Virus record (IMG/VR): IMGVR_UViG_3300005937_000004
Span: 14,950-78,949 of that record
DNA: 64,000 nucleotides
Strand: one strand, 5' to 3'
Origin: a virus
Taxonomy: Duplodnaviria > Caudoviricetes
Every line of letters starts with the position of its first letter. The first letter of the stretch is position 1. Below the pieces are notes generated by a model, which ran no database searches, was not told the DNA's origin, and was given only the letters and a program-made list of their open reading frames with translations. Position numbers and translations under genes: made by a program. This document shows positions 4,498 through 55,740 of the stretch, piece by piece.

Positions 4498-5432
4498 TGA
4501 CCAATTACGTCCAAGGTCTAAGCGCAGATTGTAGTCCCGCTGATCATTTCAGAGCTTGGGCGCAATTCATAGAAGACTCCCTGGTTATGGGTGGTTGGAT
4601 CGTCACCAATGATACCGGTCAAACCAAGCCGCAGGATCTCCAGGTTCCCACTGCCGGGCAACAGAAAAAGGGGTTCCGGATCTATCAGATGAACGATGAT
4701 CTGCAGGCCGAAGCCCCGGTGTATATGCGGCTCGATTTCGGGAGCGGGTTCTCCAATTTTGGAACGCCCTATAGCCCGTCGGTATGGATAACGCTGGGAG
4801 GTGGCACCAACACTATCGGAGACATCACTAATGTATGGCTGAACAGCGCTTATGTTGAATCACATCAAGCTAGCGGGGTCAGTGATTGTTATGCCAGTGT
4901 AGACAAAGGTCGATGTGCCTTCGGAATGTTTGTTGGACCTGTTCCGGGAAATACCAATGCCGGTTCATTCGCGTTTAGTGTTGAACGTTGGAAAGATGAA
5001 CTTGGAAAAGACATCGACGAAGGGCTCCTGGTTGTTTATACCAGCAGGCGAAGTGTTCAGGGAAACGTGCAGATTTGCTTGTCTTATTCTCCCACCTGCT
5101 ATTTCGAAGTACCTTTGCAACGACAACAGCCTATCGACGTTGGTCTAAATTTTGTTCACACCACCAGCGATCCTTCTCCCACCCACTTTGGAGACAGAGG
5201 AGTTGGAGTATTGTTCCATTTCTTTGGCATAGCGCTACAGCCCGGGAAAAACTGGGTGATCTGCAACGCCACCGATACAGCTGGCCCTATCCTGCTGGTA
5301 ACCATGTACGATGAACTCATTCCGTATCTGGCAGTTAATCTAATTCCGACCGTAGCAGCTATTGGCCCTGCGGGATTTGGAGCATCTGAGATTGGAGACA
5401 CTTTTCGGAAAGTACTAATGAGGTACGACTAA
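4497..5432 (+). CDS. Tail/receptor-binding protein paralog 1
   Basis: Shares WAQFIE, DTGQT, GFRIY.M.D, MR.DFG, ER..D, QPG and C-terminal MRYD with the next two genes. Confidence 0.75.
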   Translation: MTNYVQGLSADCSPADHFRAWAQFIEDSLVMGGWIVTNDTGQTKPQDLQVPTAGQQKKGFRIYQMNDDLQAEAPVYMRLDFGSGFSNFGTPYSPSVWITLGGGTNTIGDITNVWLNSAYVESHQASGVSDCYASVDKGRCAFGMFVGPVPGNTNAGSFAFSVERWKDELGKDIDEGLLVVYTSRRSVQGNVQICLSYSPTCYFEVPLQRQQPIDVGLNFVHTTSDPSPTHFGDRGVGVLFHFFGIALQPGKNWVICNATDTAGPILLVTMYDELIPYLAVNLIPTVAAIGPAGFGASEIGDTFRKVLMRYD

Positions 5433-6442
5433 TGGCTACGATGTTTAGCGCGGATCTGGTGCCCGACACTTATGTCGCTGCAAACATACAAGGCTGGGCC
5501 AGTTGGATTGAATCGGTCTTAACGACCATTGCCGGATGGACTGTGACCAGCGATACCGGACAAACTCTTCCCAGCGCTTTACCGGCAGGCACTGCCCAGA
5601 ACCAGAGACTTGGTTATCGCGTCTACGAGATGCACGATGAATTCACTGACGATCAGCCGATCTTTATGCGGATCGATTTTGGGACCGGTATGACCAGTGG
5701 AACCCCACCAAGTTCGATAGGTTACACACCCGGCATAAATTTTTCATTCGGGGCTGGTACAGATGGCGCAGGGAACCTGACAGGGATCTATTGGAACGGC
5801 CAAGGCTGGCACCCGAGCTCGCTACACACTGTCTACACTAATAGCCATCCTTCCCAGCCACCGATAACTTTCAGAACCAGGAGTTACGCCAGAGCTGATA
5901 ACAGCAGTTTTATTCTCGGATTATTCATTCTCGAAGGAAACAATCCAGCCGGGTTTTTTGGATCAGAGCAGATTACTTTTTCCCTTGAGCGAAGCAGGGA
6001 TCGGGATGGCATTTATACTGGGGACGGACTCCTGATCAGCTATACTGATAACCAGATCCTAGGTGGCGGTGGAACAGTGATGGCGCTTAATGCCACCAAA
6101 TACCTGATCCTGGATCGACCTGGACGAGCTCAGCCTCCATTAGAAAAAGGTCTTTCTTACCCATACATCAGGCATACCCCGGCTTACTCGTATGACGGGA
6201 CTATTCCCTGCGCATTGTGCAGCCATTTCAGGGGAACAGCGCAACAACCTGGGATTAACTTCATAATGATGGGGGCCAACGATATTTCTGCCGAAGGTCA
6301 ATACCAAGTGGTCCAATACGGACAGACGCGCATCTATCAAAACTTACGATATCTGATGACAGGAAGAGCGGCAGCAGGTCCAGTGGGATCAGCTGGTCCA
6401 CTCAATGACGCCGGGTGCAGGATCTCCATGCTGTATGACTGA
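5432..6442 (+). CDS. Tail/receptor-binding protein paralog 2
   Basis: Same motif series; ends MLYD; coupled start/stop. Confidence 0.75.
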   Translation: MATMFSADLVPDTYVAANIQGWASWIESVLTTIAGWTVTSDTGQTLPSALPAGTAQNQRLGYRVYEMHDEFTDDQPIFMRIDFGTGMTSGTPPSSIGYTPGINFSFGAGTDGAGNLTGIYWNGQGWHPSSLHTVYTNSHPSQPPITFRTRSYARADNSSFILGLFILEGNNPAGFFGSEQITFSLERSRDRDGIYTGDGLLISYTDNQILGGGGTVMALNATKYLILDRPGRAQPPLEKGLSYPYIRHTPAYSYDGTIPCALCSHFRGTAQQPGINFIMMGANDISAEGQYQVVQYGQTRIYQNLRYLMTGRAAAGPVGSAGPLNDAGCRISMLYD

Positions 6443-9856: not shown

Positions 9857-10083
9857 ACGCAAAAAGGGCGGCAATAAACTTTCACTCGATCGAGATTGAT
9901 CTCACCGTTTTTCCCTTCAGCCCTGAAGTCTGTCACCGCTTTAATGGCTGCAGCTTGATCGCCTTCCGCGACCACTGATCTCGGTGGCATGACAAGTGTT
10001 TCGCCCTTGCCTTCTTCTTCTTCTTTTTTGGTTGGTAACTGCGTTAATGCTACTTCGTATAACATAGGATTAAAAGTGGGCAA
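9853..10083 (-). CDS. Hypothetical protein
   Basis: 76 aa ORF in a co-oriented chain. Confidence 0.6.
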   Translation of the reverse strand: MPTFNPMLYEVALTQLPTKKEEEEGKGETLVMPPRSVVAEGDQAAAIKAVTDFRAEGKNGEINLDRVKVYCRPFCV

Positions 10084-10120
10084 CCACTCGTAGGCAGGTT
10101 GCCCAATCGCCTGTTGTTTA

Positions 10121-10435
10121 TTAACCGTATTTGAGTCTGTTATATTCCCGGAAAGAGACCGGTGAACCTTCCCACAGGTAATCCTTCGAATCCCAATAAG
10201 GATCGTAAGTTATTCCCTTGAGAGCTTTCCTGATCTGGCGGAGTCGCTCCTTCCTGTTCAACTTCTTCCGTGTAACATGTTTTGGCAGAAGCTTCTTAAA
10301 CCAAAACTGATAGATCCTCAGATAGAAGTTTGGATGGTAGTTGATCAACCAGATGTTAGCGCCGATGAATGACGCTATTCCGACAACGATGAGGAATACC
10401 ATACCTACGTTGTGACAGGTGCAACTGTCGTCCAC
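10121..10435 (-). CDS. Hypothetical membrane-anchored protein
   Basis: N-terminal hydrophobic helix, basic C-terminus; start reassigned to GTG. Confidence 0.55.
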   Translation of the reverse strand: MDDSCTCHNVGMVFLIVVGIASFIGANIWLINYHPNFYLRIYQFWFKKLLPKHVTRKKLNRKERLRQIRKALKGITYDPYWDSKDYLWEGSPVSFREYNRLKYG

Positions 10436-28576: not shown

Positions 28577-28650
28577 GGGCAGGGGAAGGAATCGAACCTT
28601 CAAAGAGAATCCCGCAAAGACTCTTGCCTTAGCCATTCAGCCACCCTGCC
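28577..28650 (-). tRNA. tRNA-like element with an atypical anticodon arm (Gln/Ala ambiguous)
   Basis: Acceptor GGCAGGG/CCCTGCC; T arm GAAGG-TTCGATT-CCTTC; stem AGAGT/ATTCT around 9 nt CTTTGCGGG. Confidence 0.65.
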
Positions 28651-29520: not shown

Positions 29521-29545
29521 AAGGCAAACTGTTAAAATTGTAAAA

Positions 29546-29617
29546 GGCGAGGAATCGGGTTCGAACCGAGCTCTACCGGAATTATCCGATTGTTTTGCCG
29601 TACTAAACTACCCCGCC
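29546..29617 (-). tRNA. tRNA-like element with a 6-nt anticodon loop (pseudo-tRNA)
   Basis: Acceptor GGCGGGG/CCTCGCC; D arm GTTT..AAAC; ATCGG-ATAATT-CCGGT; TTCGAAC T loop. Confidence 0.6.
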
Positions 29618-30184: not shown

Positions 30185-31030
30185 GTTACCTTGCCTGCTG
30201 TACCGAGCTTGAACGTGCCGCGACCTGTCATATCTCGCCTGTTCCTTCCTTATCCCGCCTGCCAGTCCTGAGCGAACGTTACCCCGCACTAACCATCTTA
30301 CGGGACCCCGACTCGCCTGCCACGCCGTAGACCGACAGATCGCCCAAGACGATCTCCACCCGGACGGGCCTGCCGTACCAGTTCTTTTCACCTACAGAGC
30401 GATCAGCTCCGCTTACGCCCTGCCTGCCATGCCAGTCCCCTGTTTGGTCATTCTCCGCTATCTCAATACCGGACTGACCTGTACCCGCCTCTCCTGCATT
30501 TCCGGACCGAAGACTCCCGTGGCTACCGAGTCCCGCTTTACTGTCCGGACCTCACTGGAACACTCTACTGGTTCCGTACCGAGCCGCGCCTGCCCAACCA
30601 ATCAAGGACTCTATAGATCCAACTCCAACGAACTGGACCCCATCAATCCCTGCCTGCTAAATCTATCCTTGCCATTCTAAATCAGCCCATGACGGCCCCA
30701 GGTCATAGCTACCCTCATCTTGCCTGCAGTTCCTATCTCTACCGATAGAAGACTTTCCGAAGCCAATCCGTCGTTGCCAAACCCAACCTGCGCGATCGGG
30801 CCTGCCCCGCCATACACACATCCGACTGTACCGGGACGTATCTTGCCTGCCATACCATTCCCCTGCTACTACGAAGCTTTTCACAACTATCTGGACCTGA
30901 TCTTTCCATGCCTGCCGTGGCTTAGCTTGGTCATCCCCAATCTATCTAACCATTCTCTTCTACGCCTGCCGTGCCTACTGATTCCTTGCTGCTGCCCTTC
31001 ACAACCCGCTTAACCTTCCCCGCCTGCGGA
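30185..31030 (-). repeat. Pentamer-module array A (13 GCAGGC anchors plus variants), VIPR-like guide RNA array
   Basis: GCCTGC on + at 30193, 30257, 30315, 30368, 30422, 30588, 30652, 30722, 30800, 30845, 30910, 30964, 31022; degenerate GGY-NN between. Confidence 0.85.
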
Positions 31031-31051
31031 ATTGACATTGGAAATAGATGT

Positions 31052-31276
31052 GTGCCCGGTAAACTTGGAAGTCCATCTCCAATCGAGACGATCTGGCTCT
31101 TAGAACAGTTCGAAAAACTTCACAACGAGCATCTATTGATCTTGAGAAAGATCGATGAAATCCAAACGACAATTAATCCAGCTTTAGAAAAGCAGGTGCG
31201 TTTGGCATTGACACTCGCCACAAAGGTTGACCAAAAAGTTCCAGACATAAATGTCCCACCATCAACCAAACCGTAA
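31052..31276 (+). CDS. Small coiled-coil protein between arrays A and B
   Basis: GTG 14 nt after TTGACA (31032). Confidence 0.55.
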   Translation: MPGKLGSPSPIETIWLLEQFEKLHNEHLLILRKIDEIQTTINPALEKQVRLALTLATKVDQKVPDINVPPSTKP

Positions 31277-31288
31277 GGATAAAAAACC

Positions 31289-31534
31289 ATGGCAATGACA
31301 CAAGCAGAAGCTACCGCAGCGCTGACCAAAACCAACGAAACGCTGGTCAAGATCAGCAATGAAACCGACGCGCTCCTTCGTGAGATCGAAGCTTTGAAGA
31401 AAGCCTTAGCCGACGCTGGCGGACCGGGTGGAACGATCACGCCAGAATTGGAAGCTGCCGTCAACGCAGTTGGAACAAGGGCGGAAGCCATTGACCAGCT
31501 GGTCGAGGATGTGCCTCAGCCAGAGGGCAAATAA
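31289..31534 (+). CDS. Small coiled-coil phage protein (TQAE.TA.L...N..L.KI..ET..L type)
   Basis: 81 aa; AAGGA upstream. Confidence 0.75.
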   Translation: MAMTQAEATAALTKTNETLVKISNETDALLREIEALKKALADAGGPGGTITPELEAAVNAVGTRAEAIDQLVEDVPQPEGK

Positions 31535-31596
31535 TTTTATTTGACTCGCTGTCGGAATAGGAATAGAAATTCTGGCAAGGTTAAGGCATTAAGATC

Positions 31597-31640
31597 GTGT
31601 GGGGCGGGCAGCCGTAAAAAGCGCCGCCCCGCCACTTTTT
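31597..31640 (+). terminator. Intrinsic terminator candidate
   Basis: GGGGCGG/CCGCCCC stem followed by TTTTT. Confidence 0.6.
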
Positions 31641-31644
31641 AACG

Positions 31645-32530
31645 AACCGGGCTGGAGATACCTGGTCGCTCCAATTCAAACCCCGCCTGCGCTATCATTC
31701 CATACCCAAACGGGATCGATCATGCGATCCCAATCTTGCCTATTCCCGCCTGCCTGATCAAACCAAGTCAAGCCTGACCCGCTCCATAGCTCTACTGTCT
31801 GCGCCACCCGTCCCAAAACCGTCCATGCCTGCCGTGCCTTTAGGTGCCTGAGCGAATCAATACTTCAAGCCCTTGCCTCGCCTGCCGATCCTTGCCGACG
31901 CAAGATCATTCCTGGGCTCTACAGTTCATGACTTGTTTCTTCCCGCCTGCTGTTCCCAGCCCGATCCGGACTGAGCTCTCCACAGTAATCCCATACAATT
32001 CATACCTGCCGTGCTTATTCCCATTTCTCCCCAGTTGACTGCTCTATAGCATTCCTCGCCTGCCGTTCCGAAGCTTCCTAGATCCACCATACCTCGATCC
32101 GTCCATAGACCGATCGAGCACACCAACCAGCTCCTCGCCTGCCCTGCCATCCCCGAGCTCAGTTCGACCTCATCGTGACAGTCCAGCTTCTCCGTGCCTT
32201 GACCCTCGCCCCCCAACGTTACGGACCGAACTCACCACGCCTGCGCATCCGAGCCAACACCGCTTGACCCAACTGGACCGGTTCCCAGCCCATTAGTCTA
32301 AGCCCAACCTCGCCTGCCCCACTGCGTTTTTCCGAACCAACCCGGACCTGACCCAAAAGGATCAAATCCCTCTGCCCATACCATGCCTGCGATGCCCCAT
32401 CTTGGTTCACCAAATCGGGGTGGAACAGTCCAGATAACGCCTGCCACAGAATATCTATCCCGCGCAACCCAGGTCTCATCTATTCGTGATACCAGCTCTC
32501 CAGGCCTGCCTTGCCATGACGCAGCCCGGC
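31645..32530 (-). repeat. Pentamer-module array B (12 GCAGGC anchors plus one variant), VIPR-like guide RNA array
   Basis: GCCTGC at 31685, 31748, 31827, 31880, 31945, 32058, 32137, 32239, 32312, 32385, 32439, 32504; ACCTGC at 32004. Confidence 0.85.
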
Positions 32531-32574
32531 TACTCAAGCTGCATCCAAAATTATTTCTGCTGCGATTTATGGGC

Positions 32575-32742
32575 ATGGCAGCAATAAACAACCCACAAAC
32601 CACGGAAAAACAGAGTGCCCCAATGACAGGTGGTGGCAATCCTGTTGTTCATCCTAATGATCCGAGTATTACTCCGGAGGAAAGAGAACGGCGGGAGCGT
32701 GAGGAACGTGAACGCCAGCGAAAACAGAAGCAGTCGAAATAA
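32575..32742 (+). CDS. Small charged protein between arrays B and C
   Basis: 55 aa; E/R-rich tail. Confidence 0.55.
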   Translation: MAAINNPQTTEKQSAPMTGGGNPVVHPNDPSITPEERERREREERERQRKQKQSK

Positions 32743-32805
32743 CTGCATCGCTTGTGATGGTTCAAAGCCTCACAAGCGAACATATTGACACCTGGAGGAT
32801 TTAGT

Positions 32806-33141
32806 ATGCCTACAGCACACAAGGAAACCAAACACACGGTCGCTGGTCCGGACCCAGTTCCGGAATACCGACATGAAGCGGAAAGAAAAGCCCGTGAAGA
32901 AGCAGAAGAAGCAAGCGAAAAAGCCAAAAAAGAAGGTCCACCAAAGCCTCAAGCGCAAATCGACGCGGAGCTCGCAGAAAAAGGTGGCGACGTCCCAGAA
33001 GAAAGGCAAGGTGTCCCAACCGAAGCCAGACGCTGGACAGCCGTGGAACGAGAACGCGAGGAGCGCGCTGATTACGAAAAGTTTAAAGCGGAGTACGCTG
33101 CTGAGTGGAACAAGCGACACGCCGCCAAAGCTTCCAAGTGA
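32806..33141 (+). CDS. Small acidic/charged protein between arrays B and C
   Basis: ATG 15 nt after TTGACA (32785); GGAGG SD. Confidence 0.7.
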   Translation: MPTAHKETKHTVAGPDPVPEYRHEAERKAREEAEEASEKAKKEGPPKPQAQIDAELAEKGGDVPEERQGVPTEARRWTAVEREREERADYEKFKAEYAAEWNKRHAAKASK

Positions 33142-33151
33142 GGATGGGGGT

Positions 33152-33188
33152 GGAGAGCGTCCCTTTGTATAGAAGGACGCCCTCCGTT
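33152..33188 (+). terminator. Hairpin terminator candidate
   Basis: GGAG-A-GCGTCC / GGACGC-C-CTCC then GTTT. Confidence 0.5.
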
Positions 33189-33189
33189 T

Positions 33190-33394
33190 AGCGTGTCATG
33201 GCATGCCGTTTCTTGCCCCGGTAGCCCCGGTGCAACTCGGCTCGCCTGCCGGACCTTGCCGACCCGTGGTGTACCATGGTGGACCAAGTTCCACCCCATC
33301 TATATCGACAAATCCATGCCTGCCCCGCTGTAGCAGGTCCCAGGGTACCGTGAACCGATAACCCTCATTTCGCCACGCCTGCCGAACTCTGCCG
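33190..33394 (-). repeat. Pentamer-module array C (3 GCAGGC anchors), starting right after the partner-gene stop
   Basis: GCCTGC at 33244, 33318, 33377; the 33318-33244 unit parses as 14 pentamers plus GGCA. Confidence 0.85.
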
Positions 33395-33862
33395 TTAGTT
33401 GTCGGTTAGCACTAATTTGAGTTCTTTCTGGAATTTCTTAGAAGCAGCAAAGACCTCGGATAATTCACCGAGATTTTTATATTTCTTTTCAAATTCCAAA
33501 AGTTCTGCCCTTGCATCAGCCAGGAGTTGCATGCGCAAAGATTTGTTGCTCATCACGTCTACCATCGCCCTGTAGCCGCCACCGGCAGTGCGGTCTGGCC
33601 TTAAGGAGGTGAAAACGCGAATTGCTCTGCGGTCTCCATTCATCCGGACGTATTTAACAACGCACCGAACGAGATGGCCTGCTTGGATTAAGCGGTATTC
33701 AGCTGCCGCCTCTGAATCATCCCACTCAAAGTATTTGTGTAGGATGCTACTCTTTGGTCGAGCTGCTTGGACCACTGCCTCCGCTCGGAGGATTCCCTCC
33801 GGGTCCTGATCCCTGATCCGGTTGAGTTCCCGGATCACCATCGGATTGCTTATGTCGTACAT
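33395..33862 (-). CDS. Partner protein of the RAMP-like gene (LHKYFEWDD..AA..YRL.QA type)
   Basis: Start reassigned to MYDISNP; lies between the RAMP-like gene and the array. Confidence 0.8.
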   Translation of the reverse strand: MYDISNPMVIRELNRIRDQDPEGILRAEAVVQAARPKSSILHKYFEWDDSEAAAEYRLIQAGHLVRCVVKYVRMNGDRRAIRVFTSLRPDRTAGGGYRAMVDVMSNKSLRMQLLADARAELLEFEKKYKNLGELSEVFAASKKFQKELKLVLTDN

Positions 33863-34070
33863 CGGCTTTTTTCCTCTCCCACATACCGACTTTCGCTCCC
33901 TTTTTCTGTGAGATCTCATTGGCTATATCACGAACATTGTCCATGATTCTGGCTGCAACACTGATCTCTTCAGGCGAAGGGTTCTTGCTATAGACCCTGG
34001 CCTCCACCCTGCCGGAGACCTGGCCTTCATCAGCCGGTTGTTCTCGGATTTGAATGAGGATGTCGATCAC
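33747..34070 (-). CDS. Possible small gene coupled to the RAMP-like gene
   Basis: GTGA overlap with the stop at 34067; overlaps the next gene by 116 nt. Confidence 0.35.
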   Translation of the reverse strand: MIDILIQIREQPADEGQVSGRVEARVYSKNPSPEEISVAARIMDNVRDIANEISQKKGAKVGMWERKKADVRHKQSDGDPGTQPDQGSGPGGNPPSGGSGPSSSTKE

Positions 34071-34759
34071 TTTTGCTCGACCTCGAATAGGCCCCAGCCT
34101 TGACCGGGACTGTTTCGAGAATCGGGTCGACCTTCGCAGATTCCGACCTGTAATCCAACTCGCATCAACAGGTTGGTGACGTCTTTCAACTGGAACTGAT
34201 CTGCGTCCCAGCGGATCTTGACGTTCGCTTCCCATGGCATGTACTTGGCTCGAATAGCCACATACGGTTGCCCTGTTTCAACCCGAGCGATCGACTTGAG
34301 AAGTTCTGGTTTCCCATGAAGCCGGATCAATGGGATGGTCGGTTCTGTCCCGTCCCAGCCGTCCTGCACGACGAAGATGGAAAGTTTGGCTAACGTCATC
34401 TTGAAGTTGACCAACCTGCAGGCCGAAATGCAGGCATTGCGAATAGAGCCAGCATGAAATCCATCCCAACCCTGCGGTGAAATGTAACGAGCCTGTATGA
34501 AAGACTCGTTAATGTCCTGCGGTTCTCGCTTCTTCTTTGAAGACGCCGATTTTCCTTCCATCTGCTTGGCTAACATTTCGTCAGCCACCTTTTTGCTGAA
34601 CCGGTGTATTACCAGAGGTACACCAGATAGACCGCTGATCTTGAATACCGCCGTCTGGAAGTTTGGCGGTGTGATAGTGACCGTCATTCGACGTTCACCG
34701 TCCAGTGACGGCTTTTTAGTCATCCGTCGAGACTTTGCTGTTAGGGTTGATGTTGCCAT
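34067..34759 (-). CDS. Stand-alone Cas7/RAMP-like protein (Vipr-like), 230 aa
   Basis: N-terminal strand-G..PLVIH; F.A.SIR.A.I.AC; R.KY.PWEA.V.I; C-terminal Gly-rich loop VGLQVGICEGRP......GWGLFEV. Confidence 0.8.
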   Translation of the reverse strand: MATSTLTAKSRRMTKKPSLDGERRMTVTITPPNFQTAVFKISGLSGVPLVIHRFSKKVADEMLAKQMEGKSASSKKKREPQDINESFIQARYISPQGWDGFHAGSIRNACISACRLVNFKMTLAKLSIFVVQDGWDGTEPTIPLIRLHGKPELLKSIARVETGQPYVAIRAKYMPWEANVKIRWDADQFQLKDVTNLLMRVGLQVGICEGRPDSRNSPGQGWGLFEVEQK

Positions 34760-34852: not shown

Positions 34853-35431
34853 ATGTTGTCGCAGGCTGCTATAGCCCGTGAGTGGGGTGTGTCCCGAGCT
34901 TACGTTAATCAGCTGGTAAAGCGTGGTTTACCGCTTGACTCTTTTGAGAATGCCAGGCTATGGCGCGATGCTCATGCTCGGAAGCGCGCCCCCACTGACC
35001 CAGTGCAATTAGCTCACCTTGAGGAAGCCGATAGACCTCAAAGTTCGACCGAACCAATGCCAGCAGGAGACGCGCTTCAGAACGCGAACCGCGCAGCTCA
35101 GGAAGCTTACAGACTGTTAAGCGAAGCGATGATAGAAGGTAAGACCAGCAAAATCTCAATCCTTCTGTCGGTGCATTCCAAAGCCCTGGAAGCAAAATGC
35201 CGGATTCAGACGATGATCCGGGAAGAGGAGGAGAGGCGCAACATCCTGATCCCACTGGCCAAAGCCCAGGAGATTACGAGACAAGCGTTTGAGGTCATTA
35301 TCAAACGCTTAATCGCGCTGCCGCAGAATATTGCGCCTCGGTGCAATCCTCATGATCCAACCCACGCATTGGGAATCTTGGAAGACGAATGTCGCGGGAT
35401 AATCAGCGCAGCCCAGAAAGCGATCGCATGA
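34853..35431 (+). CDS. terS: Terminase small subunit (Nu1-like)
   Basis: N-terminal HTH SQAAIAREWGVSRAYVNQLVKRG; helical C-terminus; coupled to terL. Confidence 0.8.
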   Translation: MLSQAAIAREWGVSRAYVNQLVKRGLPLDSFENARLWRDAHARKRAPTDPVQLAHLEEADRPQSSTEPMPAGDALQNANRAAQEAYRLLSEAMIEGKTSKISILLSVHSKALEAKCRIQTMIREEEERRNILIPLAKAQEITRQAFEVIIKRLIALPQNIAPRCNPHDPTHALGILEDECRGIISAAQKAIA

Positions 35432-37266
35432 GTCCTATCGACGATTACCGCGCTTTTGTTTCTGGGTTGCTCGCACCGCCACGGAAAATATCGGTGGTCG
35501 AATGGTGCGAAGAAAATGTAAGCGTTCCAACTGGGGCAGTTCAAGGTCAACTTTCGATGCGAATGGCACCATATGGGCGTGAGATTCTTGAGCGCTTTGG
35601 GGACCGAAAAACCCGGTCTTTGACCTTATGCTTTGCTTCACAGTCGAGTAAGACGACCTTGATAATCTTGGGGATGTTGTATCGTCTTTGTAATAATCCC
35701 CAGGACGCGATGTGGGTGATGCCGAATCGGGAGTTGGCGAATTCATTTTCGAAGAGTCGCTGGATGAAGTTTATAACCGAATGTCCGCCGGTTAACGCGC
35801 TATTGCCGAGAACCAGCCGGAACGAGATCGATCGTCATATGTTTGCTTTTATGGAGCAACATTTTCTGACGATGTTTCTGAAATTTGTGGGATCGAACTC
35901 ACCGGCAAACTTGGCTTCGTTCCCTTGTGGAACATTGGTGATGGACGAGACCGATAAGTACGGAGAACAAACAAAATACGAGGCCGCTGCTTTGGATCTT
36001 GCCGAGGAGAGAACGAAAACTTTCCCGTTTTCTTTGATTGTGAAAGCTTCGACGCCAACCATGGCGGCAAGAATGATTTGGCCTGCTTTTGAGGCGAGCG
36101 ATCAGAGGAGATATTGGGTTCCATGTCCAAGATGTGGTAAGGATATTTTGTTGAATTTTCGGCACACCAGTGAAACGCATGGGGATTGCGGTTTACGCTG
36201 GTGGCATGAGAATGAAAGCGAAGTAAAAACTGATGGGGAATGGGATCTCAAGAAGATTCGCGCAACCGCTTATTACAAATGCCAGGAATGCGGCGGCGCG
36301 ATCCATGAATGGGAGCGACCCCGGATGTTGGAGGCCGGTGTTTGGAAGCCTTCCAACGACAAAGTCGACGAAGGAATTTATGGTTACCATCTTTCCAGTC
36401 TTTATTCCATCCTGTCGGACAAAACTTCTTTCGGTTCGATCGCGGTAAAATGGATCGAATCGAAAAACTTTTTAAGTGGCAGGCAGAATTTCATCAATAG
36501 TTGGCTGGCTGAGACCTGGGACGCTGAAAGAGCGTTCGACCAGGCCGACGTCAAGACTGAGACAATTGACCTTAAATCGCTTCCTGAGAAGACGACCGCT
36601 ATCATGTTCGCGGACGTTCAAGAAAATGGGTTCTGGGTGGTAATACGGCGCTTTATGCCGCCTTCTAAGGAACGACCGTATGGCGAAAGCTGGCTTCTTT
36701 ACGCGGATTTTGTCGGGACGGAAGATGAGCTTGAATCTCTTTCCAAAGAATACGAGGTTGCGACCCAGAATGTTTTGCTCGACATGGCCCATCGCCCCAA
36801 TCAAGTGGGACGAATGTGTATCGAACACAACTGGCGAGGGTTATGGGGAAGCGACACCAAGAGTTTCTACCACCGTCAAGCATCCGGTGTTCGGATTGAG
36901 CGCATTTATAGCGCTGTTCAACTGCGAGATCCGCACTTGGGTACGCATCTGGCCAATCGAACGTTTCAACGCGCCAAATACGTCAAGTATTCAAAGGAAG
37001 CTGCCCTCGACCTGGTATCCAGTCTCCGCTATTCGACTCCCACCATCTGGCACGTCAGCGCCAACGTCTCAACCCGATACCAGCGGCAACTCAACTCAAA
37101 GGTTAAAGTGATGCAGCAATCCAAAAAGACTGGGCGGTTCGAAAGTTTCTGGAAAGATCTGCACTCTGAAGATCATTTGTTAGACGCCGAATGCGGTGTA
37201 GCGATCCAGGCTGTGATCCTCGGCCTGGTCGCTGTGCCGCAAGAGAAAATTGACATTGCGGCATGA
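35428..37266 (+). CDS. terL: Terminase large subunit (lambda GpA family)
   Basis: ASQSSKT, VMPN, GSNSPANLAS, MDETDKY, STPT, YWVPCPRC, CQECG, GYHLSSLYS, DHLLDAE. Confidence 0.96.
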   Translation: MSPIDDYRAFVSGLLAPPRKISVVEWCEENVSVPTGAVQGQLSMRMAPYGREILERFGDRKTRSLTLCFASQSSKTTLIILGMLYRLCNNPQDAMWVMPNRELANSFSKSRWMKFITECPPVNALLPRTSRNEIDRHMFAFMEQHFLTMFLKFVGSNSPANLASFPCGTLVMDETDKYGEQTKYEAAALDLAEERTKTFPFSLIVKASTPTMAARMIWPAFEASDQRRYWVPCPRCGKDILLNFRHTSETHGDCGLRWWHENESEVKTDGEWDLKKIRATAYYKCQECGGAIHEWERPRMLEAGVWKPSNDKVDEGIYGYHLSSLYSILSDKTSFGSIAVKWIESKNFLSGRQNFINSWLAETWDAERAFDQADVKTETIDLKSLPEKTTAIMFADVQENGFWVVIRRFMPPSKERPYGESWLLYADFVGTEDELESLSKEYEVATQNVLLDMAHRPNQVGRMCIEHNWRGLWGSDTKSFYHRQASGVRIERIYSAVQLRDPHLGTHLANRTFQRAKYVKYSKEAALDLVSSLRYSTPTIWHVSANVSTRYQRQLNSKVKVMQQSKKTGRFESFWKDLHSEDHLLDAECGVAIQAVILGLVAVPQEKIDIAA

Positions 37267-51468: not shown

Positions 51469-54400
51469 GTGTTCGACACCTCCAATCCTGTGCCCCGTAC
51501 TGAGGGTAAACGCGCCCTGAATCGGTTGGCGCGCAAACTTCGCAGCGAAATCAGGTTTGCTACCAAGACATGGATGCCTGTGCTTCCATCTCCAAAGCCA
51601 GGTGAGATCCAGGAAGCTTATGACCCTGGCAGCATGTACAACATCTCACCTGAAGGCCGAAGAATCAGGGAAGCAGTGCTCTACAAAAGGCCAGCAAAAC
51701 AACTCCGTATCCATGGAGCCATGGCTGGCGCTGACATAGGAAAGCCGCAGGTCACTTACAAAGTTATGCGACCACTAGCCCCTGGGCAGTCACAGCCATA
51801 TTCTACTCCTAAGGGCATGCATTGGGCTACTGTTGGTAAGCTCGACATCCAGCGTGGAGAAGCTTTTAAGGAACAGCCTACCTACAGGCGCAACAGGTTG
51901 GATTGGAGCAAATACGTTGGCGCTCATGTCGAGAACCAGCTTGTTGCCGAACGCAAAAGACTGCAGATGGCTGGAGTAGCTGAGACCATTGGAGAAACCA
52001 GGAAACGTCTCCATGGTCAACTGACGCGGGACTTTCTGGCGCAGGTTCGCGAACAATACGCTGGTGAGCGGATGAGTAAAAGCCAGCTGCGCGCTGCTAC
52101 ATCCAGGCACATTGAAGGCATGATGCGGGGTGCCCGGGATTACATGGCTGGCGGACTACGCCAGAGCCGGGCAATCATTCGGGCCCGTGGAGTAGATCCA
52201 CTGTTGGCCAGGGCTCATCCGGAGCGAATGGTTGAATATAAAAGACGTCTGGAAGCTGCCACGCCTGCTCGTCAGTTGGAGTCTAAAGCTACCAGAGGCT
52301 TCATGGTAAATCAGCTCAACGAGATCGCTGCCCGTGGCATGAATGTCGTTGCTCAGGAGAAAGAATCCGATTGGATGTTGAAGCGTGATAAACTACATCT
52401 TCACAGACAAATGATTGCCAGCCCAGAGTGGGCACAACGATCAGGACTCTCTCCAGAGAAACTGCAGGAAAAAGTGGCAGAGGCTGACGCAGCTTTGGAA
52501 GAACATTTCAATCTTCGCAGGACCCAGGCTGAAATCAAAGATCAAGCCAGCAGGACTGTTGCGCTGTTACACGACAAACCTGAATCCTGGGGTGGCACTC
52601 CTTTATCCAAAGAGAACGCTGAAACCATTGCTGACATCCTGCAGAAAGGCAGCAAGAGCGGTAAACCAATCACTGCCGAACACGTTAAACGTATCAAATC
52701 CCATTTCGATGATTTGTATGCTCGCACAGCCAATGTAGAGGGTGTCCAGAAAGGTTTGCTGGCCAGGGGCGACATCTTTAAGAAACCGATAGCAACAGCT
52801 CGCGCCGGATACCCACACCTTGGTAAACTCGGGGTCGGTGCTGGAATAGCCGGGATCGCGGCTGGCGGGTTGGTGCTTCGTTCGTATTTCAAACAACGTA
52901 AACGAGAGCGTCAGATGTCCAGTCGTGGCCGAGTAATCCAGTTCGCAAAGAAGTTCGGTGATCTACCGGAAGACATGCAGAAGATCATCAACGTGGCTTT
53001 CGACAAGATCGCCATGCAAGGATACTACGAAGCCAAGAGGAAAGCCGCAGCTACTGGGGCCAAATCTACGAACATCGTAGTCAATAAGCGTCTTCGTCGC
53101 AGGGCTGCATTAACGAAGCTGAAACGCAAATGGGGCACAGAATTTCTCCAGAAAGTCCTGGCTCATCCCGAACTCCCAACCCATCCGAATGCTCCAAACT
53201 GGAAAACGATGTTTGAGCATAAACAGGCAGAGAATCTGATGCTCAGGAGACAACAAGCAACTCATGCCCATATCCGTGCTGAAACTCTGAAAGAACAAGA
53301 ATCGATACTTGGCGCTCAAGCCAAAGAACGGGAAAGAGAAAGTTATACCCGTGGGATTCAATCAGGCAAAGAAATGGCGAAAGCGTCGGCCCAATCTGCC
53401 TATGAAAAGAGAGCCGACGAACTGGCTGCTGCCATTGGTGAACAGAGCGAAAAGCGAGCCAGACGCCTTAAATGGATTGCTGGTGGGACGCTGGGTGCCG
53501 GTGCGATCGGTGGATATGCACTTGGCAGGCACGATAAAGCTTCCCATGAACGTCACGATGCTCTGGCAATCATGGCATTGACCAAACGCAGAATGGCTCC
53601 ACGGCAACCCAGACAGACCACGCCTCCCGGATTCACCATCACTATTGGTGGGATAAACGGGAACAAACGACGCAACGTGGAGTTTGCTGCCAACGACGAT
53701 GACGAAGGTCCTGAATGGTTACGGGAATGGGCACACAAGAAGCTTTACGGGAGAGACTACAGCACACTGGGGCAAGCTCAGAGGGTCAAGAAATATTATG
53801 GCCGCACCCACCGGTTGATCCGTGACATCAATATCAAACGCCAGGGATTACCAAATCTCGATCCGCGAGGTCGTGTACGAAAGAACGAATGGGAAAAACC
53901 ATGGGTAGCCGGTGCCCTTACCACTGCCGGATTGGCCAGCCTGATCTTTGGTGGGAAGAGAGCTGTTAGATTTCTCAGAGAAGCTTCTCCACAGAGCAGG
54001 ATTGGTCAGCTCGTTGAAGGATTTAGGCGTGGCAACGTCCCAGGAGTCAAAGCTAAGGGATTAGCAAAGGTCGGCGGTTTTTATCATGGTATCGGTGAAG
54101 AACTTAAGCGGTGGCGCGATAAACCATTGCACGCGAAACCGAAGTATGAATACTCGAAGTTTGATCCTGTAACCGGCAAAATGAAAAGCGAAGAGCAAAT
54201 AAAACGGGAAATAGCAAAGGCGAGCAATGTCGAAGTCCTGGAAGAAATCGCGAAACGCCGAAAGATTCATCCATGGGAGAAAGGCGCAGGTGAAACAGGT
54301 TTCCGATCTGTCTTGCAAGAGATCCGATTCAGAGCTCTACCGGATCTTGAGCCTCCGCCTTACCTGCCAAGCCGAACCCTGGTTGCCCGCGATCGCTACA

Positions 54401-55740
54401 TGAAAGCAATCCATGAACGCGACATCGCCAGGGCTAATCGGTTATATGCTCACGCTGCTGCGATCGGCGCTGGTGCTGGAGCTCTACTGCGTGGTAAACT
54501 TCCAGTTGGTAAAGCCGCCGTTATTGGAGCTGCAGCCGGACTTGGAACACAGAAAGCAGCTCGAATCATTGGAAAAACTACCAGAGATCAATTTGGTGAA
54601 CGCAGCGTAACCGGTAAACGAATCGAAAGGACGCCAGGTATAGTTGGCGTTGGCGCTATCGGAACGATACTGGCTCGTAGACTTTGGAAGGGTAAAATGC
54701 TGCTTTCTGCTCGTGGTCGACCGATCCAGTTTGCTTCACGTCCGTCTCGCGAAGAAAAAGAGGATCTACCTCGCGACATAGCTATTGGCGCAATTGAGGC
54801 TGGAGCGGCATTCCCATTCACTGAACGAGCAGTCCGTTATCTGAGACCCAAGGGTGGACCAGGCAAAATCCTTGCAGCTGGCATTGTTGGCGGTCTGGCT
54901 ACTGGTGGAATTGGATACGGCATCAATAGAACCCTCAAAGCGATCAGAGAACGCCGAGAAGAACGAAGAGCGTACAGACGCGCACATCCTCGATTCAGTT
55001 GGATGTTTAGCGCCACCGGAACACCTCGAAAACGACTTGGCCTAACGAGTGGTTTGGTTCGGTTCGAAGAACCCAAACGCAAACATAACCTGCTTGCCGG
55101 AGCAGCGATCGCGTCTATCGGCATTCCTCAAGCCAGGGGCGCTTTCAAGTTTACCCGTGCAGCTCTCAATCCCAGGATTGGAAGGTTTACTGGGAAAGGC
55201 ACCCACTACGGGAAGATGGTAGCTGATTACCTGGAGGGGTCACAACAGGTCTTGAACCGGGGACCGATCGGAAAACTGGCTGGTGTAGTGCTGCGTAATC
55301 CTCAGGCTGCTCCGGTCAAAAAGGCTGTCAAATGGATCGGGGGAGGCAGCAGCGGGGTCAACAAATTGAACCGAGAGCATTTCTCTTCATTCAGGGCTTC
55401 CCCGACAGAAGCTCTACTTTCATGGACAGAAGAAGTTGAAGCGGCTCAGCGCGCTGGCAGCCTCGGTGCACGTAAACATGGTCTTCAGTCCGAAGCGGCG
55501 TTTAAGCATATACGCGATTTGACCGCGAACAAAGGCTACAACGAGACTGAAGCCATTCGACATGTAGCTATGAATCCAAAGCATCAGGAATTGTTCAGGC
55601 GATTGGCGACATTTAAAGGTGAATATTTTCCGCGTTACGCTCAGATCTCCAGCGGTATTGCTGCCGCTCCATTGACTGCCGGGGCAGGTGTGGCTGCCAC
55701 TAAACGTAAGAACGGAAACGCCTCGCCAAAGCGGCGATAA
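51469..55740 (+). CDS. Large basic internal head/ejection polyprotein, 1423 aa
   Basis: Repeated modules of Gly/Ala-rich hydrophobic helix plus basic run, separated by (I/V)xF motifs; located after the portal. Confidence 0.65.
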   Translation: MFDTSNPVPRTEGKRALNRLARKLRSEIRFATKTWMPVLPSPKPGEIQEAYDPGSMYNISPEGRRIREAVLYKRPAKQLRIHGAMAGADIGKPQVTYKVMRPLAPGQSQPYSTPKGMHWATVGKLDIQRGEAFKEQPTYRRNRLDWSKYVGAHVENQLVAERKRLQMAGVAETIGETRKRLHGQLTRDFLAQVREQYAGERMSKSQLRAATSRHIEGMMRGARDYMAGGLRQSRAIIRARGVDPLLARAHPERMVEYKRRLEAATPARQLESKATRGFMVNQLNEIAARGMNVVAQEKESDWMLKRDKLHLHRQMIASPEWAQRSGLSPEKLQEKVAEADAALEEHFNLRRTQAEIKDQASRTVALLHDKPESWGGTPLSKENAETIADILQKGSKSGKPITAEHVKRIKSHFDDLYARTANVEGVQKGLLARGDIFKKPIATARAGYPHLGKLGVGAGIAGIAAGGLVLRSYFKQRKRERQMSSRGRVIQFAKKFGDLPEDMQKIINVAFDKIAMQGYYEAKRKAAATGAKSTNIVVNKRLRRRAALTKLKRKWGTEFLQKVLAHPELPTHPNAPNWKTMFEHKQAENLMLRRQQATHAHIRAETLKEQESILGAQAKERERESYTRGIQSGKEMAKASAQSAYEKRADELAAAIGEQSEKRARRLKWIAGGTLGAGAIGGYALGRHDKASHERHDALAIMALTKRRMAPRQPRQTTPPGFTITIGGINGNKRRNVEFAANDDDEGPEWLREWAHKKLYGRDYSTLGQAQRVKKYYGRTHRLIRDINIKRQGLPNLDPRGRVRKNEWEKPWVAGALTTAGLASLIFGGKRAVRFLREASPQSRIGQLVEGFRRGNVPGVKAKGLAKVGGFYHGIGEELKRWRDKPLHAKPKYEYSKFDPVTGKMKSEEQIKREIAKASNVEVLEEIAKRRKIHPWEKGAGETGFRSVLQEIRFRALPDLEPPPYLPSRTLVARDRYMKAIHERDIARANRLYAHAAAIGAGAGALLRGKLPVGKAAVIGAAAGLGTQKAARIIGKTTRDQFGERSVTGKRIERTPGIVGVGAIGTILARRLWKGKMLLSARGRPIQFASRPSREEKEDLPRDIAIGAIEAGAAFPFTERAVRYLRPKGGPGKILAAGIVGGLATGGIGYGINRTLKAIRERREERRAYRRAHPRFSWMFSATGTPRKRLGLTSGLVRFEEPKRKHNLLAGAAIASIGIPQARGAFKFTRAALNPRIGRFTGKGTHYGKMVADYLEGSQQVLNRGPIGKLAGVVLRNPQAAPVKKAVKWIGGGSSGVNKLNREHFSSFRASPTEALLSWTEEVEAAQRAGSLGARKHGLQSEAAFKHIRDLTANKGYNETEAIRHVAMNPKHQELFRRLATFKGEYFPRYAQISSGIAAAPLTAGAGVAATKRKNGNASPKRR

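What the first reader, a model, noticed from the sequence alone, without database searches (positions are those of the whole stretch)
30193..33382. Unit lengths and internal parse show a 5-nt code rather than random spacers
Seen: anchor-to-anchor distances, counting variants at 30492 and 32004, are 64,58,53,54,70,96,64,70,78,45,65,54,58 (A), 63,79,53,65,59,54,79,102,73,73,54,65 (B) and 74,59 (C). 25 of 27 equal 5n+3, 5n+4 or 5n. The two exceptions are the longest and may be fused units. The unit 33323 to 33244 reads GCA|GGC AT|GGA TT|TGT CG|ATA TA|GAT GG|GGT GG|AAC TT|GGT CC|ACC AT|GGT AC|ACC AC|GGG TC|GGC AA|GGT CC|GGCA|GGC. Inference: the 3-4 nt remainder at the anchor breaks the register and could mark unit boundaries or processing sites.
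Basis: seen in the sequence. Interest (0 to 1): 0.85.

Follow-up and report, generated by a model that had tools for sequence, protein, structure and literature searches.

The report
Phage VIPR guide-RNA arrays, pentamer-coded
The three repeat arrays are the guide-RNA genes of a phage VIPR system, a CRISPR relative first described in 2026, written in a five-base code; at least three guides spell the catalytic motifs of DNA methyltransferase genes.

Summary
All 27 anchor-to-anchor distances are as listed, and 25 of 27 fall in the residue classes 5n+3, 5n+4 or 5n (Rayleigh p about 8e-4 for period 5). Period-5 autocorrelation reaches z 4.0 and 5.6 against shuffles, and occurs nowhere else in the window.

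The arrays read GGYNN on the minus strand. They lie downstream of a 230-aa Cas7/RAMP-fold gene (34067-34759) and a 155-aa partner gene (33395-33862). This matches VIPR (Vipr + vap + vrRNA), described in bioRxiv preprints of 2026.

In 43 related loci the protein genes and pentamer arrays travel together. There, 161 of 174 delimiter spacings equal 5k+4: whole pentamers plus one GGCA 4-mer. So the anchor does break the register, like the preprint's "staggered arrays".

Read by the published one-base-skip rule, three units match conserved methyltransferase motifs:
- GFDVVIGNPPY of Eco57I/MmeI-type N6-adenine methyltransferases.
- AGFPCQPFSxAG of C5-cytosine methyltransferases.
- DCLLGGPPCQG of C5-cytosine methyltransferases.

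These have many exact matches in public collections, where far fewer than one is expected by chance.

The kind is known. This scan has already decoded methyltransferase-aimed VIPR guides in other genomes; a later check supported that sighting but left its bolder reading doubtful. RNA ends, expression and real targets remain untested.

The parts
34067..34759 (-). vipr: 230-aa stand-alone Cas7/RAMP-fold protein (P0001)
33395..33862 (-). vap-like partner gene, 155 aa (phrog_15946)
   Evidence: It is adjacent to vipr here. It was the query that fetched loci L001-L041, and vipr lies beside it in 36 of the 43 loci examined. Homologs are Cy-LDV1 g33 (prob 99.1%) and Mycobacterium phage Brocalys gp46 (prob 99.2%), each next to a vipr homolog. 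Model pLDDT 88: weak winged-helix-like N-terminal half and a C-terminal helical hairpin. No similarity to SUSP1 vap1.
33244..33390 (-). vrRNA array C (2 full units, delimiters at 33377, 33318, 33244)
31685..32515 (-). vrRNA array B (12 units)
   Evidence: lag-5 z = 5.6
30193..31035 (-). vrRNA array A (13 units)
   Evidence: lag-5 z = 4.0
33247..33320 (-). guide unit of 14 pentamers + GGCA; its NN read antisense spell G-F/L-D/E-V-V-I/M-G-N/K-P-P-Y-R, motif IV of N6-adenine DNA methyltransferases
   Evidence: A 24-nt gapped pattern is exact in 17 metagenome contigs, best 27/28. IMG/VR best is 26/28. The targets are 930-1600-aa ORFs with Eco57I, N6_Mtase, MmeI and TaqI_C domains. The skipped base is the codon wobble.
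32315..32387 (-). guide unit GGCA + 13 pentamers + GGCA; its NN read sense spell A-G-F-P-C-Q-P-F-S-N/K-A-G, motif IV of C5-cytosine methyltransferases
   Evidence: A 20-nt gapped pattern has at least 119 exact IMG/VR matches. All 80 fetched matches are in frame in ORFs of median 379 aa, with all four bases at skipped positions. PF00145 in 3 of 3 ORFs. 24/24 in about 50 loci.
32242..32314 (-). guide unit; its first 11 pentamers spell D-C-L-L-G-G-P-P-C-Q-G, motif IV of C5-cytosine methyltransferases
   Evidence: A 22-nt gapped pattern is exact in 3 bacterial MAG contigs (expected about 0.07). All three read DCLLGGPPCQG[FY]S, with different wobble bases.
31052..31645 (+). antisense insert between arrays A and B: two small genes (31052-31276, 31289-31534) and a terminator-like hairpin at about 31600-31645; not shown to belong to the system
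   Evidence: similar antisense cassettes split the arrays of the closest relatives L042 and L043
32572..33190 (+). antisense insert between arrays B and C: two small genes (32572-32742, 32806-33141) and a hairpin at about 33150-33190

Best explanation
The three arrays are vrRNA (guide RNA) genes of a VIPR system carried by a complete phage genome of about 79 kb. The system has three parts: the Cas7-like Vipr protein (34067-34759), a vap-like partner (33395-33862) and about 29 guide units on the same (minus) strand. By analogy with the published SUSP1 system, one Vipr protomer should bind each pentamer, hold the G-G-Y triplet and expose the two N bases. The exposed bases then pair with double-stranded DNA while skipping every third target base, and the bound complex blocks transcription. 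These steps are inferred, not shown here. The delimiter GGCA|GGC is a pentamer shortened to four bases; it ends one register and starts the next, as in 'staggered' arrays. This is shown at the DNA level; RNA cleavage there is inferred. At least three guides are written against motif IV of DNA methyltransferase genes: one against Eco57I/MmeI-type N6-adenine enzymes and two against C5-cytosine enzymes. Because the skipped base falls on the codon wobble, each of these guides matches many alleles. The phage itself has no such gene. The likely use is to silence modification or restriction-modification genes of rival phages, other mobile elements or the host; which of these is not known.
For: Period-5 signal and anchor spacing. 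RAMP fold of the neighbouring gene. Profile match to the experimentally studied SUSP1 Vipr, with conserved GGY-contact residues: with residues named in bioRxiv 10.64898/2026.04.26.720927. Co-occurrence of vipr and a pentamer array (same strand as vipr in the loci read) with the vap homolog in 35 of 43 loci, in three gene orders. Canonical GGCNN arrays with GGCAGGC delimiters in relatives and in the cultured phages Cy-LDV1 and Brocalys. Arrays turn over much faster than the flanking genes: in L021/L029 the genes are identical but the arrays are 406 vs 450 nt; in L034/L035 the genes are 97% and the arrays 59% identical. Targets by the 1-nt-skip rule. Baseline from other patterns: 16-nt patterns gave 8 and 39 IMG/VR hits, so a 20-nt pattern should give about 0.03-0.15, against at least 119 observed. 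No self-target, and no PF00145 or PF02384 gene in the phage. Close relatives carry guides for the same motifs with different spellings: L042 VGGPPCQAFS and GFPCQPFS, L001 DVVIANPPY, and Cy-LDV1 LVNPPYPL.
Against: The GGY scaffold is weak in this phage. G at pentamer position 1 falls from 0.93 to about 0.55 inside units, against a background of 0.385. Even the best-matching guide has triplets such as GAT, TTT and AAC, although the published work reports that perturbing GGY abolished silencing. The SUSP1 residue W178 aligns to G210, and the hhalign probability is only 64%. Only 3 of about 29 units have a recognised target; other tested units gave none. No promoter was found for arrays A and B, which are cut off from the vipr operon by antisense genes. 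Owners of the true targets and the host are unknown. Matches to very conserved motifs say little about which genes are hit in nature. A later check of a similar claim of this scan on another genome kept the sighting but priced the bolder reading at 30/100.
Confidence: 0.88

Rival explanations
1. A decaying relic: the arrays descend from VIPR guides but no longer work, the degenerate GGY triplets being mutational erosion.
For: Interior GGY conservation is weak. There are many register slips and two over-long units. The arrays are split by antisense gene cassettes. Most units have no recognisable target.
Against: The same degenerate, interrupted architecture is kept in the closest relatives L042 and L043. 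Vipr is under strong conservation: 74-77% identity to the nearest relatives, with 70 invariant columns including the G-loop. Three units keep 22-27 informative bases matched to conserved codons while their scaffold triplets vary, which erosion would not spare. The period-5 signal persists in unit interiors.
Confidence: 0.07
2. A DNA-level protein-binding array, such as a packaging (pac) or replication site read by the nearby terminase small subunit or another DNA-binding protein, with GG every half helical turn.
For: The arrays lie about 1.5 kb from terS (34853-35431) and terL (35389-37266). They have one fixed orientation and contain no long ORF.
Against: In relatives the array follows vipr and vap, not the terminase. 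In Cy-LDV1 and Brocalys it sits in the early/immunity region next to vipr and vap homologs. A DNA-binding array does not explain why the variable dinucleotides spell methyltransferase codons with the wobble base skipped, nor the rapid gain and loss of units.
Confidence: 0.02
3. A structural nucleic-acid element: two-tetrad G-quadruplexes or an R-loop from the G-rich minus strand.
For: GC skew of -0.3 on the + strand; the pattern GGNNN can in principle form two-tetrad quadruplexes.
Against: The same objections apply as for the DNA-site rival: this reading accounts neither for the 4-mer delimiters with 5k+4 spacing nor for the decoded targets.
Confidence: 0.01

Closest known systems
VIPR systems with 'staggered' vrRNA arrays (bioRxiv 10.64898/2026.04.26.720920, fig. 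S18; seven VIPR types)
   Same: A stand-alone minimal RAMP gene, an adjacent accessory gene and tandem YNNGG pentamers on the same strand. Neighbouring guides abut with a one-base register overlap. The system is phage-borne, has no self-targets, and its targets obey the 1-nt-skip rule with the skip on the codon wobble.
   Different: The type could not be assigned because the preprint's tables are not held. Here there are about 29 units in three arrays separated by antisense genes. Units run up to 102 nt, against 9-16 repeats in print. The GGY triplets are strongly degenerate. The target class is methyltransferase catalytic motifs, a word absent from the main texts of two of the three VIPR preprints read.
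Type II VIPR of Escherichia phage SUSP1 (NC_028808, vipr agp039, vap1 agp038, four vrRNAs)
   Same: The same fold family, with a remote profile match (E 6.4e-5) that conserves H17/R138/D177/R179 as H52/R170/E209/R211. GGY/NN repeats flank the genes.
   Different: SUSP1 vrRNAs are separate genes of about 100 nt, each with an invariant structured 3' tail. Here there is no tail, only the GGCA|GGC delimiter. vap shows no similarity to vap1. W178 is not conserved. SUSP1 targets a satellite phage.
CRISPR class 1 backbone (Cas7/Csm3/Cmr4 with crRNA)
   Different: No 23-55-nt direct repeats and no CRISPR or other Rfam family in the arrays; no other cas gene was noticed among the proteins scanned in the window. 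The period is 5 rather than 6. Guide information is non-contiguous.
TIGR-Tas tandem interspaced guide RNA arrays
   Same: Short-period, non-CRISPR guide arrays found in phages.
   Different: TIGR arrays have an 18-nt period (as summarised in bioRxiv 10.64898/2026.10.21.760802); from my own knowledge their effector carries a Nop domain. Neither is present here.

Membership tests
VIPR | Homology to an experimentally studied Vipr, with conserved GGY-binding residues | tested here: inconclusive
   hhalign of A1 against SUSP1 agp039: probability 64%, E 6.4e-5, 167 columns. H52, R170, E209 and R211 align to H17, R138, D177 and R179, but G210 aligns to W178. tblastn does not reach SUSP1.
VIPR | Tandem YNNGG (GGY/NN) repeats of at least 4 units next to vipr on its strand | tested here: met
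   Window: (degenerate). Relatives: GGC 804, GGT 77 and GGA 45 of about 1010 pentamers, with all 16 NN dinucleotides used. 35 of 43 loci carry an array beside the genes.
VIPR | Adjacent accessory (vap) gene in a minimal locus with no CRISPR array or other cas genes | tested here: met
   The 155-aa gene is conserved next to vipr. No CRISPR or other Rfam family in the arrays. No long direct repeats.
VIPR | Natural targets under the 1-nt-skip rule with at least 80% NN match, and none in the own genome | tested here: met
   Three guides reach 24/24, 27/28 and 22/22. The best own-genome matches equal those of shuffled controls. The skip-0/2/3 control is partly circular, because the loci were fetched with skip-1 patterns.
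VIPR | vrRNAs are expressed, processed and co-purify with Vipr; the complex binds dsDNA and represses transcription | not testable with these tools
VIPR type II (SUSP1 / P. fulva clade) | Each vrRNA ends in an invariant structured 3' tail; the accessory gene is vap1 | tested here: not met
   Units abut through the 7-nt GGCAGGC with no conserved tail. vap has no alignment to vap1.
CRISPR-Cas | Direct repeats of about 23-55 nt alternating with contiguous spacers, plus cas1/cas2 adaptation genes | tested here: not met
   The only conserved element is 7 nt long. Tandem Repeats Finder and Rfam found no CRISPR repeat. No cas1/cas2 was seen among the ORFs scanned near the locus.

The most novel reading that the evidence does not exclude
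This phage clade uses VIPR guides as a family-wide weapon against DNA modification. By aiming at motif IV of Eco57I/MmeI-type N6-adenine methyltransferases and of C5-cytosine methyltransferases, with the wobble base skipped, one guide would silence many alleles in rival phages, mobile elements or host defence loci. It would do so with scaffold triplets far from GGY, implying a Vipr that tolerates a relaxed repeat.
Probability: 0.35. Interest if true: 0.8.

Novelty: new member of a known kind. Interest (0 to 1): 0.55.

Why it matters
This is an independent check of the VIPR one-base-skip code. It comes from a clade remote from the tested E. coli system, one whose relatives include cultured mycobacteriophages and a cyanophage. 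It also points to a target class, the catalytic motifs of DNA methyltransferases, that the main texts of two of the three VIPR preprints I read do not mention. If real, it links RNA-guided silencing to the contest over DNA modification and restriction. It would also show that strongly degenerate scaffold triplets can still carry a precise guide. The Brocalys and Cy-LDV1 homologs offer cultured phages for a direct test.

Tried and rejected
- **Rfam and tRNA scans.** Nothing was found in the arrays.
- **BLASTN against cultured phages.** The region gave no match.
- **Pfam on ten neighbouring proteins.** Nothing useful.
- **Early readings** (terminase or pac site, origin, Chi-like cluster, TRAP-like RNA sponge, G-quadruplex). 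I considered these before the relatives were seen, and dropped them once the array was found to travel with a RAMP gene and to decode into targets.
- **Skip-rule search against the window's own genome plus 43 loci.** The window's guides (skip 0-2) and 113 clean guides of relatives (skip 0-3) scored at the level of shuffled guides. Skip 3 only finds the guides themselves.
- **Lead from L004.** One guide matches a conserved YDRYELKL codon run of an ATPase gene in 16 loci at 14/16. That score is expected by chance, so I do not count it.
- **Exact IMG/VR scans of three 11-pentamer patterns.** 0 hits.
- **Full 28-nt pattern of unit 33320 in metagenomes.** 0 hits.
- **8-pentamer seed of unit 30802.** 39 hits, all extending at chance level.
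- **16/16 match of unit 32241 to AGSRKGVE in a C5 methylase.** It lies in a register without GGY and is within chance for the number of tests, so I do not count it.
- **vap fold.** Foldseek gave only weak forkhead or winged-helix rows (E about 0.6). The wide VIA search was dominated by the C-terminal helical hairpin. No conclusion.
- **Supplementary tables of the preprint.** Not held, so the VIPR type could not be assigned.
Full report
**1. The observation**

The window belongs to a complete phage genome: 78,949 bp with a 124-bp terminal overlap, and 100% complete by CheckV. It encodes terminase, portal and primase-helicase.

- The hexamer GCCTGC occurs 28 times on the + strand between 30193 and 33382.
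- Of the 23 + strand copies of GCCTGCC in the whole genome, 21 lie in the three arrays: A 30193-31035, B 31685-32515 and C 33244-33390.
- The spacings modulo 5 are 4 (11 units), 3 (8), 0 (6), 1 (1) and 2 (1). A Rayleigh test singles out period 5 among periods 3-12 (R 0.51, p about 8e-4).
- Base autocorrelation against dinucleotide-preserving shuffles peaks at lags 5, 10, 15 and 20. Lag 5 gives z 4.0 in array A and 5.6 in array B, with troughs between the peaks.
- The signal survives removal of 12 nt on each side of every anchor (z 3.0-3.8).
- No other part of the 64-kb window shows it.

**2. What the repeat looks like**

On the minus strand the units are runs of pentamers G-G-Y-N-N.

- Just after a delimiter, G occupies pentamer position 1 in 93%, 73% and 70% of units. 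Further in, the figure is about 55%, against a 38.5% background. Position 3 is G-poor and pyrimidine-rich.
- The anchor is the pentamer GGCNN shortened to GGCA and followed directly by GGC.
- A unit of k pentamers plus this 4-mer is 5k+4 long. The 5k+3 and 5k classes carry one more one-base slip. For example, unit 32387 is GGCA + 13 pentamers + GGCA.
- The array-wide Fourier maximum at 4.9 instead of 5.0 is the expected consequence.

**3. Relatives**

I used the 174-aa ORF at 33395-33919 (its product is called as 155 aa from 33862) as a probe. IMG/VR returned 41 loci, and two closer relatives came from Logan assemblies.

- 35 of the 43 loci have a strong period-5 tract beside the probe's homolog and a homolog of the 230-aa gene at 34067-34759. 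In the loci read, the tract lies on the same strand as these genes.
- Three gene orders occur: vipr-array-vap, vipr-vap-array and vap-vipr-array.
- In many loci the tract is an almost perfect (GGCNN)n punctuated by GGCAGGC.
- Of 174 delimiter spacings there, 161 are 4 mod 5, with modes at 44 and 49 nt.
- Of about 1010 pentamers, 804 begin GGC, 77 GGT and 45 GGA. All 16 NN dinucleotides occur.
- Arrays change far faster than their flanking genes. L021 and L029 have identical genes but arrays of 406 and 450 nt. L034 and L035 have genes 97% identical and arrays 59% identical.
- The two closest relatives share the window's degenerate triplets and its arrays interrupted by antisense gene cassettes.
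- Cultured phages carry the same trio. Cyanophage Cy-LDV1 has g34, g33 and arrays on both sides of g33. Mycobacterium phage Brocalys has an array upstream of gp45 and gp46. Other Cheoctovirus and Gordonia phages also hit.

**4. The proteins**

*The 230-aa protein.* It has 4401 unnamed homologs.

- Its AlphaFold model (pLDDT 78.6) matches only Cas7-family RAMPs. These include Csm3, Cmr4, type VII Cas7 and Cas7-11.
- I located the SUSP1 VIPR locus from its GGY/NN tracts. A profile of the window's family aligns to SUSP1 Vipr over 167 columns (E 6.4e-5, probability 64%).
- The residues that the cryo-EM preprint names as contacts of G1, G2 and Y3 are H17, R138, D177 and R179. They align to H52, R170, E209 and R211, which are invariant or nearly so. 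W178 aligns to G210.

*The partner protein.* It models well (pLDDT 88) as a possibly winged-helix-like N-terminal half plus a helical hairpin. The fold matches are too weak to name it. It is unrelated to SUSP1 vap1.

**5. Identification**

The anatomy is that of VIPR systems (bioRxiv 10.64898/2026.04.26.720920.720927 and 2026.10.15.759431).

- A minimal RAMP (Vipr) polymerises on vrRNAs made of YNNGG repeats, one protomer per repeat.
- The protomers hide the GGY triplets and expose the NN bases.
- The NN bases pair with double-stranded DNA while every third target base is skipped. The bound complex silences transcription.
- The first preprint mentions internal degeneracy of repeats and variant consensus forms.
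- It also describes 'staggered arrays' whose vrRNAs derive from positions overlapping by 1 nt, the end of one marking the start of the next. The GGCA|GGC delimiter fits this description.
- The locus is not type II: it has no invariant 3' tail and no vap1.

**6. Decoding the guides**

I joined the NN bases with one wildcard, as in the preprints.

*First searches.*
- The own genome and the fetched relatives gave only chance-level matches, so there is no self-targeting.
- Exact scans of whole collections then gave three clear results, set out below.

*Unit 33247-33320.*
- Read antisense, it spells G-[FL]-[DE]-V-V-[IM]-G-[NK]-P-P-Y-R.
- 8-pentamer seeds in IMG/VR extended to 24-26 of 28 in 15 contigs, where 19 is expected.
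- A 24-nt pattern is exact in 17 metagenome contigs, the best being 27/28 with GFDVVIGNPPYRQI.
- The ORFs hit are 930-1600 aa long and carry Eco57I, N6_Mtase, MmeI and TaqI_C domains.

*Unit 32315-32387.*
- It spells A-G-F-P-C-Q-P-F-S-[NK]-A-G.
- 16-nt patterns of other units gave 8 and 39 hits. This predicts about 0.03-0.15 hits for a 20-nt pattern.
- All 80 fetched matches are in frame in ORFs of median 379 aa, with every base in use at the skipped positions. The three ORFs tested carry PF00145.

*Unit 32242-32314.*
- It spells D-C-L-L-G-G-P-P-C-Q-G.
- The 22-nt pattern is exact in three bacterial MAG contigs out of 596 Gb (expected about 0.07). All three read DCLLGGPPCQG[FY]S, with different wobble bases.

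*What these matches mean.*
- In every case the skipped base is the third codon position.
- The arrays share no ordinary DNA similarity with these genes, because the informative bases are 5 nt apart in the guide and 3 nt apart in the target. Only the VIPR code explains the matches.
- On the fetched loci, skips of 0, 2 or 3 and order-shuffled guides reach only 16-21. This control is partly circular, since those loci were fetched with skip-1 patterns.
- The phage has no C5 or N6_Mtase gene of its own.

*The same theme in relatives.*
- L042 has guides spelling VGGPPCQAFS and GFPCQPFS, and L001 has one spelling DVVIANPPY.
- Cy-LDV1 has one spelling LVNPPYPL, where 0.06 such hits are expected among the clean guides.

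**7. What is shown and what is inferred**

*Shown.*
- The period-5 structure, the register-breaking delimiter and the RAMP fold.
- The conserved gene-array association and the fast array turnover.
- Exact skip-one matches of three guides to methyltransferase motif IV.

*Inferred.*
- Transcription of the minus strand, cleavage at the delimiter and filament formation.
- Silencing, and the identity of the real targets.

*Points that weigh against a fully working system.*
- The GGY triplets are weak, even inside the best guide.
- The W178 equivalent is missing.
- No promoter is recognisable for arrays A and B.
- Most units have no target found.

**8. Novelty**

The kind is known from preprints of April-October 2026. 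This scan has already reported VIPR arrays whose guides spell methyltransferase or restriction motifs in other genomes. A later check of one such report kept the sighting at 75/100 and priced the bolder reading, a working panel against many methylases, at 30/100.

Neither the discovery preprint nor the October 2026 preprint uses the words methyltransferase, methylase or BREX in its main text. No held paper combines vrRNA with methyltransferase.

I therefore file the finding as a new member of a known kind. It adds an unusually clear and independently obtained instance of methyltransferase-aimed guides, in a clade that includes cultured mycobacteriophages and a cyanophage.

Noticed in passing
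window 29545-29617 (-) and 28577-28650 (-): ARAGORN calls a tRNA-like gene with an abnormal two-base anticodon at 29545-29617, just downstream of array A on the same strand, and a normal tRNA-Ala(TGC) at 28577-28650. Only the latter reaches the Rfam threshold. In L002 a tRNA-like sequence also appears to follow the array (about 10040-10170; judged by eye, not scanned).
   Followed up: no
window 31052-31645 and 32572-33190 (+): Two cassettes of small + strand genes (74, 81, 56 and 111 aa; coiled-coil or charged; no Pfam or PHROG family), each ending in a terminator-like hairpin, split the guide array into three. The closest relatives L042 and L043 also have antisense genes inside their arrays. 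Their role, and how arrays A and B are transcribed, is open.
   Followed up: partly
L045 (Mycobacterium phage Brocalys NC_031262) about 2100-2340; L044 (Cyanophage Cy-LDV1 BK059895) about 4640-4860 and 5440-5620: Cultured phages carry canonical GGCNN arrays with GGCAGGC delimiters beside unannotated vipr and vap homologs (Brocalys gp45/gp46; Cy-LDV1 g34/g33), in the immunity/excision region. The annotated start of Brocalys gp45 (2333) abuts the end of the array. 27 Mycobacterium and 5 Gordonia phage records hit the Vipr query.
   Followed up: partly
L004 9786-9829 versus L031 9705 and 15 other loci: A guide of one relative matches, at 14 of 16 informative bases and with the skip on the wobble position, a conserved YDRYELKL codon run. 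The run lies in the ATPase gene just downstream of vap in another subclade. The score is at chance level for the number of tests, but it is the kind of inter-relative target the preprints describe.
   Followed up: partly
L043 5746-6057 and 6054-6620; L042 6769-7335: Close relatives carry a gene with an Acb2/Tad1-hairpin hit (an anti-CBASS/Thoeris sponge family) and a KH-domain gene next to the GpA-type terminase.
   Followed up: no
window 51469-55740 (+): A 1423-aa ORF directly after the portal gene has no PHROG family hit.
   Followed up: no
window 32242-32139 region (unit 32241, 102 nt): In a register without GGY triplets, eight consecutive dinucleotides match AGSRKGVE just downstream of the PCQ motif in two C5-methylase genes (16/16). 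About 0.3 such hits are expected from the number of tests, so I do not count it.
   Followed up: partly
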